From contig JAWCFL010000001.1 in NCBI GenBank assembly GCA_038858525.1, positions 169,172 through 201,171 of the forward strand: 32,000 nt of DNA, in the 5' to 3' direction. A program made the translations under genes and the position numbers. This stretch comes from Candidatus Jordarchaeales archaeon. GTDB lineage: Archaea > Asgardarchaeota > Jordiarchaeia > Jordiarchaeales > Freyrarchaeaceae. Every line of letters begins with the position of its first letter. Position 1 is the first letter of the stretch. This document shows, one piece after another, positions 7,767 to 22,093 of the stretch. Below the pieces are notes generated by a model. That model was not told the DNA's origin. It searched no databases and saw only the letters and a list, made by a program, of their open reading frames with translations.

Positions 7767-8828
7767 ATGACGGTGATTTATGTGCCCAAGATCATTCCGC
7801 CGGAGGGTTTGAAAAGAAAGGTTATCGTTAAGAGTGAAGAGGAAACCAGTGAGGAGTACGGTAAACGTCCTAGCGAGAGGAGTGTGGAGGAGCTTTTAGA
7901 GGGGTGCTTCGTGAACATAGATAAGCCGGCAGGCCCGACCAGCCACGAAGTTTCTTCCTGGGTAAGGAGAATTTTGGGTTGCTCAAAAACTGGACATGCA
8001 GGGACACTAGAACCCCTTCAGACTTTGAAGGGGTGGTGAAATCCTAAGGTTACTGGGGTCTTGCCGGTTGCGGTAGGGTCTGCTACAAAGGTTATACAGG
8101 CCCTTCACCTTATAGGGAAAGAATACGTTTGCGTTATGAGGCTCCACGAGGATGTTGAGGGCGAAAGGATCAAGAAGATCTGTAAGGAGTTTACTGGGCC
8201 AATCTATCAGAGGCCGCCGATACGTTCCTCGGTGAAGCGAAGGCTTAGAGTAAGACGGATATATTACCTCGACGTGCTTGAGGTGGAAGGAAGAAATGTC
8301 CTGCTGAGAATAGGATGCGAGTCTGGGACGTACATAAGGAAGCTTTGCCACGACATAGGGGAGGCGTTAGGGTGCGGCGCTCACATGCGCGAGCTTAGAA
8401 GAACTCGAAGTGGACCTTTTACCGAGAGAAACATGGTAACGCTACACGACTTAAAGGACGCCTATGTTTTTTGGAAGGAGGAGGGTGATGAAGCTCCCAT
8501 CAGAAAAGTGTTATTACCAGTAGAGGAGGGAGTGCAGCACTTGCCCAAGTTTTTCGTGAGGGACTCAGCTGTTGACGCCATATGTCATGGAGCGGACTTA
8601 GCTGTTCCCGGCGTAGTCAAGCTTGAAGATGGAGTGGAGAAGGGTGATGTGGTCGCGATCTTGACTCTTAAGGGTGAACTAGTCGCTCTGGGCGTTGCCC
8701 TGATGACCGTAGAGGAAGTTGTAAGAGAAAAGCGGGGAATAGCGGTTAAAACGACAAGAGTAATAATGAGCAAAGGAACTTACCCAAAACTCTGGAAAAG
8801 CAAGAAGAATAGCGGTTCAATCACGTAG
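7767..8828 (+). CDS. cbf5: H/ACA pseudouridine synthase Cbf5, two exons (7767-8010, 8041-8828), 343 aa spliced
   Basis: [12 protein letters not shown] and GHAGTL upstream; [20 protein letters not shown] and the PUA domain downstream. Both ORF-track pieces share a frame and are separated by a 30-nt hairpin insertion containing TGA. Removing it gives GHAGTLDPKVTG. Confidence 0.96.
8011..8040 (+). other. 30-nt BHB intron in cbf5 mRNA
   Basis: Exon helix GGGA/UCCU; central helix CACU/GGUG; bulges AG|A and AA|A; intron stem ACCCCUUCA/UGAAGGGGU with loop GACUU. It splits the catalytic Asp codon (G|AT). Confidence 0.95.
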
Positions 8829-8900: not shown

Positions 8901-9206
8901 TTGAAGTACCCTAAAGTTAGGCGAACTTATTGTCCACGATGTAAAACACACACAGAACACTCAGTTAGCGTCTATAAGAAAGGTAAGGATAGGGCACTGG
9001 CCGCAGGAGCTAGGCGCTATGCAAGGAAGAAGAGGGGTTATGGAAGCCAGCCTAAGCTCTTCTATGTCTTATAGAAGAGGGGTAAGCCCGTTCAGAGGGA
9101 GTTCGCGAAGACCACTAAGAAGGTTAGCTTTAAGCTTAAATGCAAGGAGTGCGGTCATACGCTCCACACTAAAGGTATCCGCCTCAAAAAGGCTGAAGCA
9201 ATTTAA
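8901..9206 (+). CDS. rpl44e: 50S ribosomal protein L44e (eL42), two exons (8901-9055, 9086-9206), 91 aa spliced; absent from the ORF track
   Basis: Hand translation from TTG 8901: [20 protein letters not shown]...GYGSQPK[insertion with TAG][24 protein letters not shown]...AI*. Canonical position before S27e and aIF2alpha. Confidence 0.95.
9056..9085 (+). other. 30-nt BHB-type intron in rpl44e mRNA
   Basis: Central helix GCCU/GGGU (two G-U pairs); bulges AA|G and AA|G; stem CUCUUCUAU/AUAGAAGAG with loop GUCUU; outer exon helix imperfect. Contains an in-frame TAG. Excision gives CCT AAG CCC GTT (PKPV). Confidence 0.88.
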
Positions 9207-16207: not shown

Positions 16208-16816
16208 TTAAATAATTTTCGAGGATGTTAGCCATTCAGCAAGCTTCCTGAGGGCTCTCGCCCTATGTGACAGCTTATTCTTTTCCCTAACGTCGAGCTC
16301 GGCAAAGCTCCTTCCATCACCCTCCTCAGGTATAAATATAGGGTCGAAACCAAATCCACGTTCTCCCTTGACGGCGTGAGATATGAAGCCTGAAGCCTGA
16401 CCTTTAAACACCAGCATCTCCTTGCCATCTGTGAACGCCACAACCGAAACAAAAACAGCTCTCCTGTTATCGACGCCATCCATAAGTTTTAGCACGCCTT
16501 CATTGCCTATTTTGCTGAAGACATAGGAGGAATAAGGTCCTGGGAACCCGTTGAGCGCCTCTATGAAGAGGCCGGCGTCCTCAACGAAAAAAGGGCATCT
16601 TGGATTCGCCTCCCGCATCAGCCAAGCCAGACTAATCCTAGCGATCTCTTCCAAGCTTTCCGACTGGACCTCGAGGCGCTTCACGTCCCACTGTTCAACA
16701 TTTAACCCGTACTCTGAAAAAACGATCTCAGCTTCTTGAAGCTTGTGCCTGTTACTTGTGGCGAAGAGGACATGTTTCACCTTTCCCAGTAGCGCCCCCT
16801 CCTTTCGATCTCCCAC
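16208..16816 (-). CDS. rdgB: XTP/dITP diphosphatase (RdgB/HAM1)
   Basis: FATSNRHK, VEDAGL, GFPGPYS, GFGFDPIF and SHRARAL motifs. Confidence 0.95.
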   Translation of the reverse strand: MGDRKEGALLGKVKHVLFATSNRHKLQEAEIVFSEYGLNVEQWDVKRLEVQSESLEEIARISLAWLMREANPRCPFFVEDAGLFIEALNGFPGPYSSYVFSKIGNEGVLKLMDGVDNRRAVFVSVVAFTDGKEMLVFKGQASGFISHAVKGERGFGFDPIFIPEEGDGRSFAELDVREKNKLSHRARALRKLAEWLTSSKII

Positions 16817-17403
16817 ATTTTATCTATAACTTCATTTGCCCCCTCAAAGGCGTCCCTATAACCTTGAAGAACAGCGTTGAATCCTTCTTCGAAAACGTCG
16901 TAATGACTGCTTTCCATTGCCCGCTTCATCAAGTGCAGGTCAACTCCCAAGTCCTCAACGTTCCTCGAAAAGTCTCCAAGCCCAAAATCGATGAAAAAAA
17001 TCTTCCCGTTACTAACAATCATGTTTGAAGTTGTCAGGTCTCCGTGTACTATGCCCTCCCTGTGAAGCCGCCCTATTAATTCGCCCACCTCACGCAACAA
17101 CCTGACAAGTTCTTCGCGCGGCAAACCTCCTTCCTTTATGAGGTCACTTAAAGTTCTTCCATCAATGTAATCCATAATTATAGAGGCGGATTCTAAGTCG
17201 ACGAGGTAAACTGTGGGCGCCGGGACGCCGGCTCTCTTTGCGCTATGAAGCAAGCGCGCCTCACGAATAACTCTCTGTCTTCTTAAGCTGTCATCCAGTT
17301 CCTTGATCCTGTAAAGCTTAGGCTTACGCTCCTTAACGACAACTCTTCGCCCAAAAACATGGCTAAGGAGAAGATGAGCTTCAGCCCCCTTCTTGATCAT
17401 CAC
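16777..17403 (-). CDS. bud32: KEOPS kinase/ATPase Bud32
   Basis: GAEA, VVVKER, HGDLTTSN and IDFGL motifs. Confidence 0.95.
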   Translation of the reverse strand: MMIKKGAEAHLLLSHVFGRRVVVKERKPKLYRIKELDDSLRRQRVIREARLLHSAKRAGVPAPTVYLVDLESASIIMDYIDGRTLSDLIKEGGLPREELVRLLREVGELIGRLHREGIVHGDLTTSNMIVSNGKIFFIDFGLGDFSRNVEDLGVDLHLMKRAMESSHYDVFEEGFNAVLQGYRDAFEGANEVIDKMWEIERRGRYWER

Positions 17404-17409
17404 CGTATC

Positions 17410-18440
17410 TCACCTCTCACTCTCAACCCATGATACTTGAACCTCGTCAAGCCTCCACCTCGGCTTCACGTAGCTTTCCTCCACCCTTAGGATCCTTCCA
17501 CTAACATACTCTAATATTCCTGTCCAGGCGATCATTGCTCCATTATCTCCTGCCAACTGCTGGGGGACCACGTGGAAGGAGGCGCCATGCTCCTCAGCTA
17601 TCACTCTGATCATTTCTTGCAACCTCCTGTTTCTGCCGACACCTCCCGTCAGTAGAACGTCACCTTTACGCGTGTGCGCCAGAGCCCTCTCAGTCACTTC
17701 AGCCAGCATGGAGAAGCAGACTTCCTGAACGCTGTAGCACAGATCTTCAACTTTGCAACTACCAATCTTGCCAACCGCAGCGGTGTAAACCCCAGAATAG
17801 GAGAGGTCCATTCCCTTGACGACATATGGCAGCGGAATAAAAGTGCTTCCTTTACTCGCCAGCTCTTCGACCTTTGGCCCGCCAGGATGCTTTAAACCCA
17901 GCGCCCTAGCGAGCATGTCAAGCATGTTTCCGATGGCCAAGTCAAGCGTCTCCCCAAAGACACGGTACCTGCCTTTCTCGTAAGCTGCAACCAGAGTGTT
18001 TCCTCCAGAAACATACAACGTTAAGGGGTCTTCAACGTTCTCGGTGAGACGCCCAATTTCTATGTGGGCTAAACAGTGATTAACGCCCACTAAGGGAACG
18101 TTTAACGCCAGTGCAAGCGCTCTGGCAGCCGTCGCCACCGTTCTCAGGCAAGGGCCTTTGGGGGCTTCGCCAACCCCGGCCCTTGAGAGAACGCGACCAA
18201 GTTAACCTCACTTATTTTGATTCCGGCTTCGCTTATAGCTGAGGTGATCGCCTGCTTAACCGCGTTCGAGTGGTGCTGCGCGGCTTCCCTAGGGTGGATC
18301 CCGCCCTCAGCGGGCACATACTCGTCTCTGATGTTCGCTAGAATTTCTCCTTCACTACTTGCCACTCCTACACCTAAAGTGTGAGCTGTTCCTTCGAGCC
18401 CCATGCATAGCAGGCGGCGGCCGCCCAGTGCCTTCCTCAC
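17410..18440 (-). CDS. kae1: t6A synthase Kae1/TsaD, two exons (18440-18172, 18157-17410), 338 aa spliced
   Basis: GLEGTAHT, GGIHP and VAFSQGPGL in one frame; GPCLRTVATAAR, VNHCLAH, VSGGNT, GETLD and DNGAMIA in another. Removing 14 nt joins them. The GTG 18440 start is tentative. Confidence 0.94.
18158..18171 (-). other. 14-nt canonical BHB intron in kae1 mRNA
   Basis: Exon helix CAAGGGCC/GGCCCUUG (8 bp); central helix GGGG/CCCC; bulges UU|G and AA|A; mini stem GC-GAA-GC. Excision gives GGG TTA GGC CCT TGC (GLGPC) and removes the frameshift. Confidence 0.93.
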
Positions 18441-18459
18441 AAGTCTCAGTGTAGCGCCA

Positions 18460-18660
18460 TCAGCCGCCTTCATCCTCCTTATCCTCATCCTCTCTTTTCT
18501 TTTCCTTAGCTTCCCTAACATACTCCGTGTATCCACACTTGCCGCAGGTGTAACGGCGCCAGTGCTCCGCCATGAAGACGCCTGGCCCACACCTGGGACA
18601 GAACTTTTTGGCGCGAACCAGTTGGCCATTGACGATCTTGTAGTATTTGCCAACGCTCAC
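18460..18660 (-). CDS. rps27ae: 30S ribosomal protein S27ae (eS31), no ubiquitin fusion
   Basis: [15 protein letters not shown] and [12 protein letters not shown] motifs. Confidence 0.96.
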
Positions 18661-18682
18661 TTAACATCCCTCCCTTTCGCTC

Positions 18683-18985
18683 TTAAGCTGCACCTTTACT
18701 TTCATCGCCGAGATTACGATTAATGAGGTAATCTGGCTCTATTTGGAGGGCAACATCCTTAGAGCTGTAAACTCGAGCCACCCCCTTAGACTGGCCCACA
18801 CCGTACTCGGTCTCTATTTTTCTTATGAACACTTGGTCTAGGGAGACATTGAGGAGGGCGGCGAGCTTGCGCCTGACTTCCACTCTGTTCGGCGTGCCCT
18901 CGCCTTCATGCTCAACCACGAACTCTACTTCTTCCCTGTTAAAGAAAGGGTTTTTACTTCGAGAAACAAGTTTCACTTCCATCAC
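18683..18985 (-). CDS. rps24e: 30S ribosomal protein S24e
   Basis: NPFFNREEV, GTPNR, IETEYG and GVARVY motifs. Confidence 0.95.
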   Translation of the reverse strand: MMEVKLVSRSKNPFFNREEVEFVVEHEGEGTPNRVEVRRKLAALLNVSLDQVFIRKIETEYGVGQSKGVARVYSSKDVALQIEPDYLINRNLGDESKGAA

Positions 18986-20801: not shown

Positions 20802-22093
20802 TAAGCCTCCACCTTCCCGAAACCATCCTGCTCACAGCCACCCTCTGACCATCCTCAGCACACACAGGACGCCGCAGCGCCACTTCAACCTCCCCACTCC
20901 TAATCGACGATACAACGCCCACTGTCACCGCCGACCCAACATTCAGCATTAAAGCCTCATTAACACGCACATTCTCCACCCTGGAAAGCTCCTCGCTTCC
21001 CACAACCCTATCCATCAGGTGAAGCTCAATACACAAATCCTCACGCACGGGAGGAAGGGTCCCGGGAGAACCTACAACGTTCCCAATCAAACCATCAGCC
21101 TTCGTCAAAGAGGGGTCCAGCCGCGTACCAACACCAATCAACCCACCTGGCAAAGCTTCCTCAAGCCACACGTCACCAGCATGCAAACTTACAACGTCAG
21201 CATAAATAGGCTCAAACTTACCTTTAACAGCAACTCCCGGACGAATTTCAACCTCATCCCCAACCCTAACTCTACCTTGAATAATGGTTCCACCAATAAC
21301 GCCCCCAACAAGATCCTCAGGCCTAGTTCCCGGCTTATTCACATCAAATGACCTCGCCACATACATCCTCAAAGGCTTACCCGGGTCTCTAACCGGATTA
21401 GGAATATGCTCTTCCATGAACTGCAACAAAGCATCCAAATTAACACCAAAAACAGCCGAAACAGGAACAATAGGAGCATCCTCAGCAAAACTACCACCAA
21501 TAAACCTCTTAATCTGTCTAAAGTTTTCTAATGCCTTCTCCCTAGAAACAAGCTCAACCTTATTCTGAACAATAACAACATTCCTCACACCAATAATCTC
21601 CAAAGCCGCAAAGTGCTCTCTAGTCTGCGGCTGAGGGCAAAACTCATTAGCAGCAACAACAAAAACACAACCATCCATCAAAGACGCACCACTAATCATG
21701 GTCGCCATTAACCGCTCATGACCAGGACTATCCACAAAGCTGACCTTCCTCACAAACTCAGCTTCACTCCCACACTTAGGGCACTTCCACCCCCCAGCCA
21801 TAGCCAAAGTAAAGTAGCAGTCAGGAGGCGGGCAAGATGGACACTTCAAAATAATAGCATCAGCATAACCCAACTTAATCGTAATACCACGACGCTTCTC
21901 CTCACTATGACGATCAGTCCACACACCAGCCAAAGCCTGCACAAGCGTGGTTCTTGGCCCGCGAGAGAGACACTCCCAACGGATTGCCATGATCCACGTC
22001 TCTAGCACCAGCTGATCAACAGCTGGCGAGTCCAGCTGTTCCCACAGAAACTAAAGCCTGCGTACTCATGGCCTTCTTATAAGCTTCGTCCAA
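20779..22093 (-). CDS. eif2g: Translation initiation factor aIF-2 gamma, three exons (22093-22030, 21999-21984, 21952-20779), 417 aa spliced
   Basis: TDRHSEEKRRGITIKLGY, FVDSPGHE, CPQPQTREH and NKVE motifs. The P-loop missing from the ORF track is rebuilt as GTAGHVDHGKTTLVQAL after removing two insertions. TTG 22093 follows an SD GGGGG. Confidence 0.95.
21953..21983 (-). other. 31-nt BHB intron 2 of aIF2gamma mRNA
   Basis: Central helix UGGC/GCCA; bulges AA|U and AG|A; stem CCGU-U-GGGAG/CUCUC-GCGG with loop UGUCU; outer helix CGUGG/CCACG. It splits the P-loop Lys codon (AA|A). Confidence 0.92.
22000..22029 (-). other. 30-nt BHB-type intron 1 of aIF2gamma mRNA
   Basis: Central helix CUGG/CUAG; bulges AC|U and AG|A; stem CGCCAGCUG/CAGCUGGUG with loop UUGAU; in-frame TGA; outer exon helix weak. 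It splits the His codon (C|AC) of GHVDHGK. Confidence 0.9.

What the first reader, a model, noticed from the sequence alone, without database searches (positions are those of the whole stretch)
18150..18185. 14-nt minimal canonical BHB intron in kae1
Seen: CAAGGGCC-GGGG-UUG-GC-GAA-GC-CCCC-AAA-GGCCCUUG is a textbook BHB with an 8-bp exon helix. The intron GGCGAAGCCCCCAA is the sole cause of the apparent frameshift between the two Kae1 ORF fragments. Established: Kae1/TsaD makes the universal t6A37 tRNA modification, and GPG(L) is a conserved motif. Inference: splicing gates a tRNA-modification enzyme, and the intron size resembles short tRNA introns.
Basis: partly seen in the sequence, partly recalled or inferred. 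Interest (0 to 1): 0.85.

Follow-up and report, generated by a model that had tools for sequence, protein, structure and literature searches.

The report
14-base tRNA-type intron splitting kae1
The only copy of the essential tRNA-modification gene kae1 in this hot-spring Asgard archaeon is interrupted by a 14-base insert shaped like a tRNA intron, kept at the same codon in two Asgard classes, so its mRNA very probably has to be cut and rejoined by the tRNA-splicing enzymes, something published for the coding region of only one other archaeal gene (cbf5).

Summary
Observation confirmed. On the minus strand, 18185-18149 reads h(CAAGGGCC)-H(GGGG)-UUG-GC-GAA-GC-H'(CCCC)-AAA-h'(GGCCCUUG). Removing 18171-18158 (14 nt, cut after the second base of each bulge) joins two fragments into a 326-aa Kae1 with the GPGLGPCLR motif restored. 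It is not an assembly error: independent DNA runs keep the 14 nt. All 17 kae1-bearing genomes of two Asgard classes (Jordarchaeia-type f1/f2, Odinarchaeia-type f3/f20), plus 7 metagenome contigs, carry a 13-32 nt insert at the same codon with the same architecture. The helices covary (95.6% of cells paired against 84.6% when shuffled). The two synonymous-site exon pairs can pair in 88-94% of intron-bearing genes, against 35-37% of 60 intronless genes. Both exons are under strong purifying selection. The genome encodes a two-subunit EndA and RtcB. Direct RNA proof is missing: no RNA contig bridges the site. In this genome the inner helix is marginal (2 bp) and a competing hairpin is 3.7 kcal/mol more stable. 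The "gating" idea is untested and weakened, because cbf5, rpl44e and aIF2-gamma in the same window also carry such introns. This scan had already noted kae1 introns on other genomes; I found no published report.

The parts
18172..18404 (-). kae1 exon 1: ATG at 18404, 77 full codons, then the first two bases (UU) of the split Leu codon
   Evidence: NCBIfam arch_KAE1 model positions 2-78. dN/dS between species is 0.04-0.16.
18158..18171 (-). 14-nt BHB intron GGCGAAGCCCCCAA: third base of the 5' bulge, GC-GAA-GC mini-hairpin, CCCC, first two bases of the 3' bulge
   Evidence: Its removal restores the frame and the GPGLGP motif. Homologous 13-32 nt inserts sit at the same site in 17 genomes and 7 metagenome contigs. 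The 14 nt are present in DNA contigs of runs X12 and X7 with no gaps.
17410..18157 (-). kae1 exon 2: third base (A) of the Leu codon, 248 codons, stop codon at 17410-17412
   Evidence: NCBIfam arch_KAE1 model positions 80-323, 385.7 bits. PDB Kae1 5jmv_A, E = 4e-93. dN/dS is 0.02-0.10.
18149..18185 (-). Whole BHB motif: 8-bp exon-exon helix (18185-18178 with 18156-18149), 4-bp central helix (18177-18174 with 18163-18160), 3-nt bulges UUG (18173-18171) and AAA (18159-18157)
   Evidence: Covariation counts. Intronless control.
18140..18192 (-). Possible outer extension of the exon helix: GUUCUC (18192-18187) pairing with GAGAAC (18145-18140)
   Evidence: It is part of the minimum-energy fold. 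Across 17 sequences 88% of its cells pair, but no pair changes on both sides, so support is weak (helix 1).
16777..17403 (-). bud32, the KEOPS kinase partner of Kae1, immediately downstream as a separate gene
   Evidence: NCBIfam arch_bud32, 233.9 bits.

Best explanation
The 14 nt at 18171-18158 (minus strand) are a bulge-helix-bulge intron in the kae1 pre-mRNA. The transcript folds so that exon codons Q-G-P pair with exon codons G-P-C (8 bp). The next four exon bases GGGG pair with intron CCCC. Two 3-nt bulges (UUG, AAA) are then exposed four base pairs apart. The two-subunit (alpha-beta)2-type splicing endonuclease EndA cuts after the second base of each bulge (UU|G and AA|A). RtcB joins the 2',3'-cyclic phosphate and 5'-OH ends, which creates the Leu codon UUA and an mRNA for a full 326-aa Kae1. 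Splicing is obligatory for making Kae1 and is probably constitutive. The intron is old: it is shared by the Jordarchaeia-type and Odinarchaeia-type classes. In this family (f1) it has shrunk from about 25-32 nt to 13-14 nt by loss of most of the inner hairpin. Shown here: the anatomy, frame restoration, presence in DNA, conservation, covariation, purifying selection on both exons, and the enzyme genes. Inferred: the cleavage and ligation themselves.
For: (1) Excision restores the frame, the motif and a contiguous HMM match.
(2) It is the only kae1. The other PF00814 hit is HypF at 749.9 bits. The complete relative genomes G006 and G011 also have only the interrupted copy.
(3) The insert is real DNA. 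Contigs of X12 (a different study) and X7 cover 18090-18800 with no gaps, and 11 runs from 5 studies hold all sampled words.
(4) The site and architecture are the same in 17 of 17 kae1-bearing genomes of families f1, f2, f3 and f20, with inserts of 13, 14, 25, 26, 28, 29, 30 and 32 nt, and in 7 metagenome contigs. The lengths fall in all three frames, and the 30-nt in-frame version carries stop codons.
(5) Covariation: 95.6% of cells pair against 84.6% when shuffled (0 of 500 shuffles as high). The covariation score is 0.387 against 0.184 (0 of 500). Sliding the partner columns gives 33-58%. Pair 12-56 shows all six standard pair types, and the central helix changes GGGG/CCCC to CGGC/GCUG to GGGU/GCUU.
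(6) Control: in 60 distinct intronless kae1 genes the two free synonymous-site pairs can pair in 35% and 37%, against 88% and 94% in intron-bearing genes. All 8 positions pair in 5% against 82%.
(7) In most relatives with longer introns the unconstrained minimum-energy fold is the canonical BHB.
(8) Cutting after bulge base 2 gives a Leu codon (YUA) in every sequence, and the third base of the 3' bulge is A in all 24. The cut between the second and third bulged nucleotides matches the EndA-RNA structure paper PMC12397907.
(9) dN/dS is 0.02-0.16 for both exons, with dS near saturation.
(10) The genome has two EndA paralogs (a catalytic-half-like one and a beta-like one) and RtcB. Asgard EndA is reported as (alpha-beta)2 with the broad-specificity L1 loop (PMC5829648).
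(11) cbf5 in the same window has a canonical 30-nt BHB intron that splits the catalytic Asp codon G|AT, as in Crenarchaeota.
Against: No spliced junction was seen. The two metatranscriptome runs that hold parts of the gene have no contig across 18121-18171, spliced or unspliced. No full-length protein derived from a spliced transcript of these lineages is in the 5.8-billion-protein collection. In this genome the BHB is not the minimum-energy fold: it lies 3.7 kcal/mol higher at 37 C. Its inner helix is only 2 bp, and effectively absent in G003 and G004, so the substrate is closer to a bulge-helix-loop. No EndA from this lineage has been tested on such a small substrate.
Confidence: 0.87

Rival explanations
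1. Translational recoding: the ribosome bypasses or frameshifts over the insert (T4 gene 60-type hopping), so no RNA splicing is needed.
For: The insert is short and sits in a stable hairpin, and no spliced RNA was observed.
Against: Insert lengths of 13-32 nt fall in all three frames, and the in-frame 30-nt one has stop codons. There are no matched take-off and landing codons: Leu UUG/UUA/CUA before the insert, AAA/UAA/UGA/AGA before the resume codon. What covaries is exactly the BHB geometry, two 3-nt bulges 4 bp apart, which hopping does not need.
Confidence: 0.03
2. The gene is truly split: a 78-residue N-terminal piece and a ~242-residue C-terminal piece are made separately and assemble.
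For: A mechanical ORF with a GTG start begins 6 codons into exon 2. Gene callers in public databases annotate only the 223-248 aa piece.
Against: That GTG is not conserved: relatives read ACU ACC/ACA GCG there. The break falls inside the invariant GPGLGP motif. The N-terminal frame would carry lineage-specific junk tails. The conserved, covarying BHB has no role in this model.
Confidence: 0.03
3. Artefact or decay: an assembly or sequencing error, or a pseudogene.
For: The genome is a 63-contig MAG, 92.7% complete. Single-base frameshifts do occur in other assemblies (G339, L089).
Against: Independent DNA runs keep the 14 nt. Seventeen genomes, including two closed ones, have an insert at the same codon. 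dN/dS is 0.02-0.16 in both exons. It is the only kae1.
Confidence: 0.01
4. It is a spliced intron, but a regulatory one: splicing efficiency is modulated (through the competing hairpin, temperature, or EndA/RtcB load) to tune Kae1 and t6A levels, as IRE1/RtcB splicing gates HAC1/XBP1.
For: A competing hairpin that hides the 5' site is 2.0-3.7 kcal/mol more stable than the BHB in this genome. The intron has been kept across two classes. The host gene acts on tRNA position 37, next to the canonical intron site (established knowledge).
Against: Introns of the same build sit in cbf5, rpl44e and aIF2-gamma in this window. Notes of this scan, which I did not check, report them in many unrelated genes of this genome. 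In relatives the BHB is the minimum-energy fold, with no competitor. No expression data exist.
Confidence: 0.1

Closest known systems
cbf5 pre-mRNA BHB intron of Crenarchaeota (Watanabe 2002; Yoshinari 2006; Yokobori 2009, PMC2738675)
   Same: A short BHB-type intron inside the coding region of an RNA-modification enzyme gene. It interrupts a codon of an invariant motif. The organisms have a hetero-oligomeric (alpha-beta)2 EndA. Excision is required for a functional protein.
   Different: A different gene (kae1, t6A synthase) and a different phylum (Asgard). It splits a Leu codon after its second base, whereas the cbf5 intron splits the catalytic Asp codon after its first. At 13-14 nt in this family it is shorter than the cbf5 intron sizes the paper mentions (36 and 39 bp). 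cbf5 splicing was shown experimentally; this one was not.
Archaeal tRNA BHB introns (canonical hBHBh' and relaxed BHL/HBh' motifs)
   Same: Two 3-nt bulges separated by a 4-bp helix, a cut after the second bulge base, presumably the same enzymes (EndA, RtcB), and a size within the 11-175 nt range quoted in PMC2738675. tRNA genes of this lineage are reported to carry 2.0-2.4 intervening sequences each (bioRxiv 10.64898/2026.10.13.758758).
   Different: The host is an mRNA. Both outer-helix strands and half of the central helix are coding sequence, so the structure is maintained through synonymous codon positions.
BHB intron in the 5' UTR of Haloferax volcanii HVO_1309 (PMC7714728)
   Same: A BHB in an mRNA, cut by EndA in vitro, with its excised circle detected.
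   Different: It is 46 nt and lies in the untranslated leader, so it does not interrupt the reading frame. The host has a homodimeric alpha'2 EndA.
IRE1/RtcB unconventional splicing of HAC1 and XBP1 mRNA in eukaryotes
   Same: Non-spliceosomal removal of a small intron (26 nt in XBP1, from general knowledge) that changes the reading frame, with ligation by RtcB in metazoa.
   Different: The endonuclease is IRE1, which recognises twin stem-loops rather than a BHB. That splicing is stress-regulated; regulation here is unproven.

Membership tests
Archaeal BHB intron (EndA substrate) | Two 3-nt bulges on opposite strands separated by exactly 4 bp | tested here: met
   UUG and AAA flank GGGG/CCCC. 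The same spacing holds in all 24 homologous inserts. The central helix is 98.5% paired, with two pairs changed on both sides.
Archaeal BHB intron (EndA substrate) | Outer helix h flanking the motif | tested here: met
   An 8-bp exon-exon helix, 97.8% paired over 17 sequences, with pair 12-56 in six pair types. The equivalent positions in intronless genes pair at chance level.
Archaeal BHB intron (EndA substrate) | Inner helix h' (canonical hBHBh') | tested here: inconclusive
   Only GC/GC around a GAA loop in this genome, predicted open at 70 C, and effectively absent in G003 and G004. Relatives have 5-9 bp. The substrate may act as a relaxed bulge-helix-loop.
Archaeal BHB intron (EndA substrate) | Excision at the symmetric bulge positions gives a functional product | tested here: met
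   Cutting after bulge base 2 gives a Leu codon, restores the frame and yields a full Kae1 in every sequence.
Archaeal BHB intron (EndA substrate) | Splicing endonuclease and RtcB ligase encoded by the genome | tested here: met
   Two EndA paralogs of 191 and 198 aa and one RtcB.
Archaeal BHB intron (EndA substrate) | Spliced RNA, or the excised intron, observed | tested here: inconclusive
   RNA contigs of runs X13 and X14 do not bridge 18121-18171 in either form.
Archaeal BHB intron (EndA substrate) | Cleavage by EndA giving 2',3'-cyclic phosphate and 5'-OH ends | not testable with these tools
   Needs an in vitro assay.
Kae1 (KEOPS t6A synthase, NCBIfam TIGR03722) | Full-length match to the equivalog model above its cut-off | tested here: met
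   Exon 2 alone scores 385.7 bits (cut-off 375) on model positions 80-323. Exon 1 covers positions 2-78. bud32 lies directly downstream.
Programmed translational bypass (T4 gene 60 type) | Matched take-off and landing codons flanking the skipped stretch | tested here: not met
   The take-off codon would be a Leu codon, while the codon before the resume site is AAA, UAA, UGA or AGA.

The most novel reading that the evidence does not exclude
The kae1 intron is an ancient Asgard mRNA intron, predating the split of the Jordarchaeia-type and Odinarchaeia-type classes, that is kept by selection as a checkpoint. The t6A37 synthase would be made only when the tRNA-splicing machinery (EndA/RtcB) has spare capacity. 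That would couple tRNA splicing to anticodon-loop modification, as an archaeal forerunner of RtcB-dependent HAC1/XBP1-type regulatory mRNA splicing in eukaryotes.
Probability: 0.1. Interest if true: 0.9.

Novelty: new member of a known kind. Interest (0 to 1): 0.72.

Why it matters
The searchable literature describes only one archaeal gene (cbf5) with a tRNA-type intron inside its coding sequence. This work adds the universally conserved, normally essential kae1 gene. The host is an Asgard archaeon, from the prokaryotic lineage closest to eukaryotes, and the comparative evidence is unusually clean: covariation at synonymous codon positions, checked against an intronless control. It means that standard gene calling truncates or loses essential genes in these lineages. 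It shows that the tRNA-splicing enzymes act as a general mRNA-splicing system here. It also offers a very small natural substrate (13-14 nt) for testing the lower size limit of EndA, and a concrete case for asking whether protein-coding introns and RtcB-type mRNA ligation predate eukaryotes.

Tried and rejected
RNA evidence:
- Reads were laid once. In metatranscriptome X13, contig 7 ends at 18120. Contig 8 covers 18380-18172 and stops exactly at the predicted last base of exon 1. Its other 29 letters re-match 18172-18200. This could be a graph branch or a permuted junction.
- Only one study holds it and nothing bridges the intron, so I do not count it as evidence either way.

Protein database:
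- I looked for a full-length Kae1 that an assembled spliced transcript would encode.
- Every protein at least 85% identical to the intron-bearing lineages is a 223-248 aa fragment. Full-length hits belong to the intronless family f13.

Other apparent breaks in kae1 elsewhere:
- G339 has a 1-base frameshift.
- L089 has a frameshift at residue ~52.
- G297 and G153 are cut by contig ends.
- The pattern hit in G245 is a chance match inside an EndA gene.
- None of these is an intron.

Phylogeny and distribution:
- A Kae1 tree of 39 rows needs 3 changes of the intron label, but its well-supported branches allow a single origin. One or several gains cannot be told apart.
- The number of EndA paralogs does not separate intron-bearing from intronless Asgard genomes; nearly all have two.

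Other searches:
- Rfam and ARAGORN find nothing in the window.
- I looked for a second BHB around 18380 or 18200 that could explain the odd RNA contig and found none by eye.
- ARAGORN finds only 11 tRNAs in the genome, so I made no systematic comparison with tRNA introns.

Full report
WHAT IS THERE

kae1 lies on the minus strand. It sits in the conserved archaeal cluster rpoE'-spt4-DUF359-rps24e-rps27ae-kae1-bud32-HAM1. The ORF list shows two fragments in different frames. One ends ...AFSQGPGL followed by a junk tail and a stop. The other is a 242-aa ORF that begins inside ...TVATAARAL.

Read on the minus strand, 18185-18149 is CAAGGGCC GGGG UUG GC GAA GC CCCC AAA GGCCCUUG. Deleting 18171-18158 (GGCGAAGCCCCCAA) gives one 326-aa ORF starting at the ATG at 18404, with the motif FSQGPGLGPCLRTVATAARAL.

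NCBIfam arch_KAE1 (TIGR03722) matches exon 1 at model positions 2-78 and exon 2 at 80-323. Exon 2 scores 385.7 bits, above the cut-off on its own. Nothing is missing except the split Leu codon. The region folds far better than shuffles (z = -3.9).

The motif's true lower bound is 18149.

IT IS NOT AN ARTEFACT OR A DEAD GENE

- The window comes from a 2.09-Mb, 63-contig, 92.7%-complete genome.
- Its only other PF00814-like locus is HypF, at 749.9 bits.
- Sixteen public runs hold at least part of this DNA, and eleven runs from five studies hold all sampled words.
- When laid, a 904-nt contig of run X12 (a separate study) and a 98-kb contig of X7 cover the site with no gap.
- Both exons are under strong purifying selection between species. 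dN/dS is 0.02-0.16, while synonymous sites are near saturation.

WHO HAS IT

The nearest named relatives are Candidatus Jordarchaeum / Jordarchaeia. The organism is therefore an Asgard archaeon of that order, in a different family (f1).

- In 60 relatives, the Kae1 reading frame is broken at residue 78/79 in families f1, f2, f3 and f20 only.
- f3 and f20 together form one class of seven genomes, and all seven are split. From its 1.4-Mb closed genome and from earlier notes of this scan, this class is Odinarchaeia-type.
- A motif-pattern scan of 400 Asgard genomes found the site in 16 of these genomes. G003 escapes the pattern because it has CGA instead of CAR.
- The same scan gave one chance hit, inside an EndA gene.
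- Seventy-eight other kae1 loci from Bathyarchaeia, Lokiarchaeia-type, Heimdall-type, Wukongarchaeia, Methanosarcinales and others are uninterrupted at this site.
- Seven metagenome contigs add further variants.
- Every database protein at least 85% identical to these lineages is a truncated 223-248 aa fragment. The interruption is therefore fixed in all independent assemblies.

ANATOMY ACROSS RELATIVES

All 24 sequences parse as:
- an 8-nt exon strand;
- a 4-nt exon strand;
- a 3-nt bulge, which is the Leu codon;
- a variable hairpin;
- a 4-nt intron strand;
- a 3-nt bulge ending in A;
- an 8-nt exon strand.

Intron lengths are 13 and 14 nt (f1), 28-30 nt (f2), 26-32 nt (f3) and 25 nt (f20). 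These lengths fall in all three frames, and the in-frame 30-nt version carries stop codons.

Cutting after the second bulge base always yields UUA or CUA (Leu). That cut position is the one seen in the EndA-RNA structure (PMC12397907).

COVARIATION

On the 17-sequence alignment:
- 95.6% of cells form standard pairs, against 84.6% in column shuffles (0 of 500 shuffles reach the observed value).
- The covariation score is 0.387 against 0.184 (0 of 500).
- Sliding the partner columns drops pairing to 33-58%.
- The exon pair made of two Gly third-codon positions occurs as GC, UA, CG, AU, UG and GU.
- The central helix runs GGGG/CCCC, GGGG/CUCC, GGGG/CCCU, GGGU/GCUU, CGGU/GCUG and CGGC/GCUG.

The related-sequence caveat of that tool applies, so I added an independent control. 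In 60 distinct intronless kae1 genes with the same GPGLGP motif, the two free synonymous pairs are pairable in 35% and 37% of genes, which is chance level. In intron-bearing genes the figures are 88% and 94%. All eight positions pair in 5% of intronless genes against 82%. Selection on RNA structure therefore exists only where the insert exists.

For most relatives with longer introns, the unconstrained minimum-energy fold is the canonical BHB.

MACHINERY

The genome has two EndA paralogs. One is 191 aa and matches the catalytic half of fused EndA models. The other is 198 aa and matches the N-terminal half and the beta-subunit model. It also has RtcB.

Asgard EndA is described as (alpha-beta)2 with the L1 loop that confers broad specificity (PMC5829648). 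The same enzyme type was linked to cbf5 mRNA splicing (PMC2738675; PMC10485636). Two paralogs are found in nearly all Asgard genomes sampled, so they permit the intron but do not explain its distribution.

WHAT IS NOT SHOWN

No spliced RNA was seen. Two metatranscriptome runs hold parts of the gene, but no contig crosses 18121-18171 in either form. One contig stops exactly at 18172 and carries an odd 29-letter repeat of the exon end. I leave that unexplained.

In this genome the BHB conformer is 3.7 kcal/mol above a competing hairpin at 37 C, and 2.0 kcal/mol above it at 70 C. Its inner helix is 2 bp and is predicted open at 70 C. In G003 and G004 the inner helix is effectively absent. The f1 introns are therefore better described as a minimal BHB bordering on bulge-helix-loop, which a broad-specificity EndA is expected to accept. 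That expectation is untested.

CONTEXT AND THE 'GATING' IDEA

The same window holds other BHB introns:
- A canonical 30-nt intron in cbf5 (8011-8040) splits the catalytic Asp codon G|AT. This is the position described for Crenarchaeota.
- A 30-nt intron in rpl44e lies at 9056-9085.
- Two introns lie around a micro-exon in aIF2-gamma.

Notes of this scan report many more in this genome, and kae1 introns in other genomes. I treat those notes as leads, not support. A preprint reports 2.0-2.4 intervening sequences per tRNA gene in these families and does not mention mRNA introns.

The kae1 intron is therefore most simply one of many constitutively spliced mini-introns. A dedicated regulatory role is possible, given the competing hairpin and the long retention, but it is unsupported. 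The Kae1 tree cannot decide between one ancient gain and several.

NOVELTY

Full-text searches found no report of a kae1 intron or of protein-coding BHB introns in Asgard archaea. Reviews list only cbf5 (coding region) and HVO_1309 (5' UTR). This is a new member of a known kind, in a new gene and a new phylum. At 13-14 nt it lies near the lower end of the 11-175 nt range quoted for archaeal tRNA introns. The scan had already noted it on other genomes.

Noticed in passing
window 8011-8040 (+), cbf5 exons 7767-8010 and 8041-8828: cbf5 carries a canonical 30-nt in-frame BHB intron with a TGA inside: H CACU/GGUG, bulges AGA and AAA, a 9-bp inner hairpin. It splits the catalytic Asp codon as G|AU, the same position described for the crenarchaeal cbf5 intron (PMC2738675).
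   Followed up: partly
window 9056-9085 (+): rpl44e (eL42) is interrupted by a 30-nt BHB intron: a 9-bp stem CUCUUCUAU/AUAGAAGAG, bulges AAG and AAG. Its removal joins GYGSQPK to [15 protein letters not shown] callers miss the second half of the gene.
   Followed up: partly
window about 21953-22029 (-): The aIF2-gamma P-loop region reads GGA C ... AC GUG GAU CAU GGC AA ... A ACC ACG only after two inserts around a 16-nt micro-exon are removed. That gives GHVDHGKTTLVQAL. I read this by eye only.
   Followed up: partly
window 18172-18380 (-), RNA run X13: An RNA-derived 239-nt contig covers 18380-18172, stops exactly at the predicted 5' splice site, and carries 29 further letters that repeat 18200-18172 with one mismatch. 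It could be a permuted or circular junction, or an assembly-graph branch.
   Followed up: partly
genome G000, ARAGORN on all contigs: Only 11 tRNA genes are detected in a 2.09-Mb genome, and 8 of them have called introns. This fits the reported heavy interruption of tRNA genes in this lineage, which standard tools miss. Two tRNA-Val genes have 16-nt introns.
   Followed up: no
L131 (G245:C193:7221-7263): The kae1 splice-site DNA pattern matched by chance inside an EndA-like gene (...GADFVVYRQGPGLEHSLFMVHV...) of another Asgard genome. This is not an intron.
   Followed up: yes
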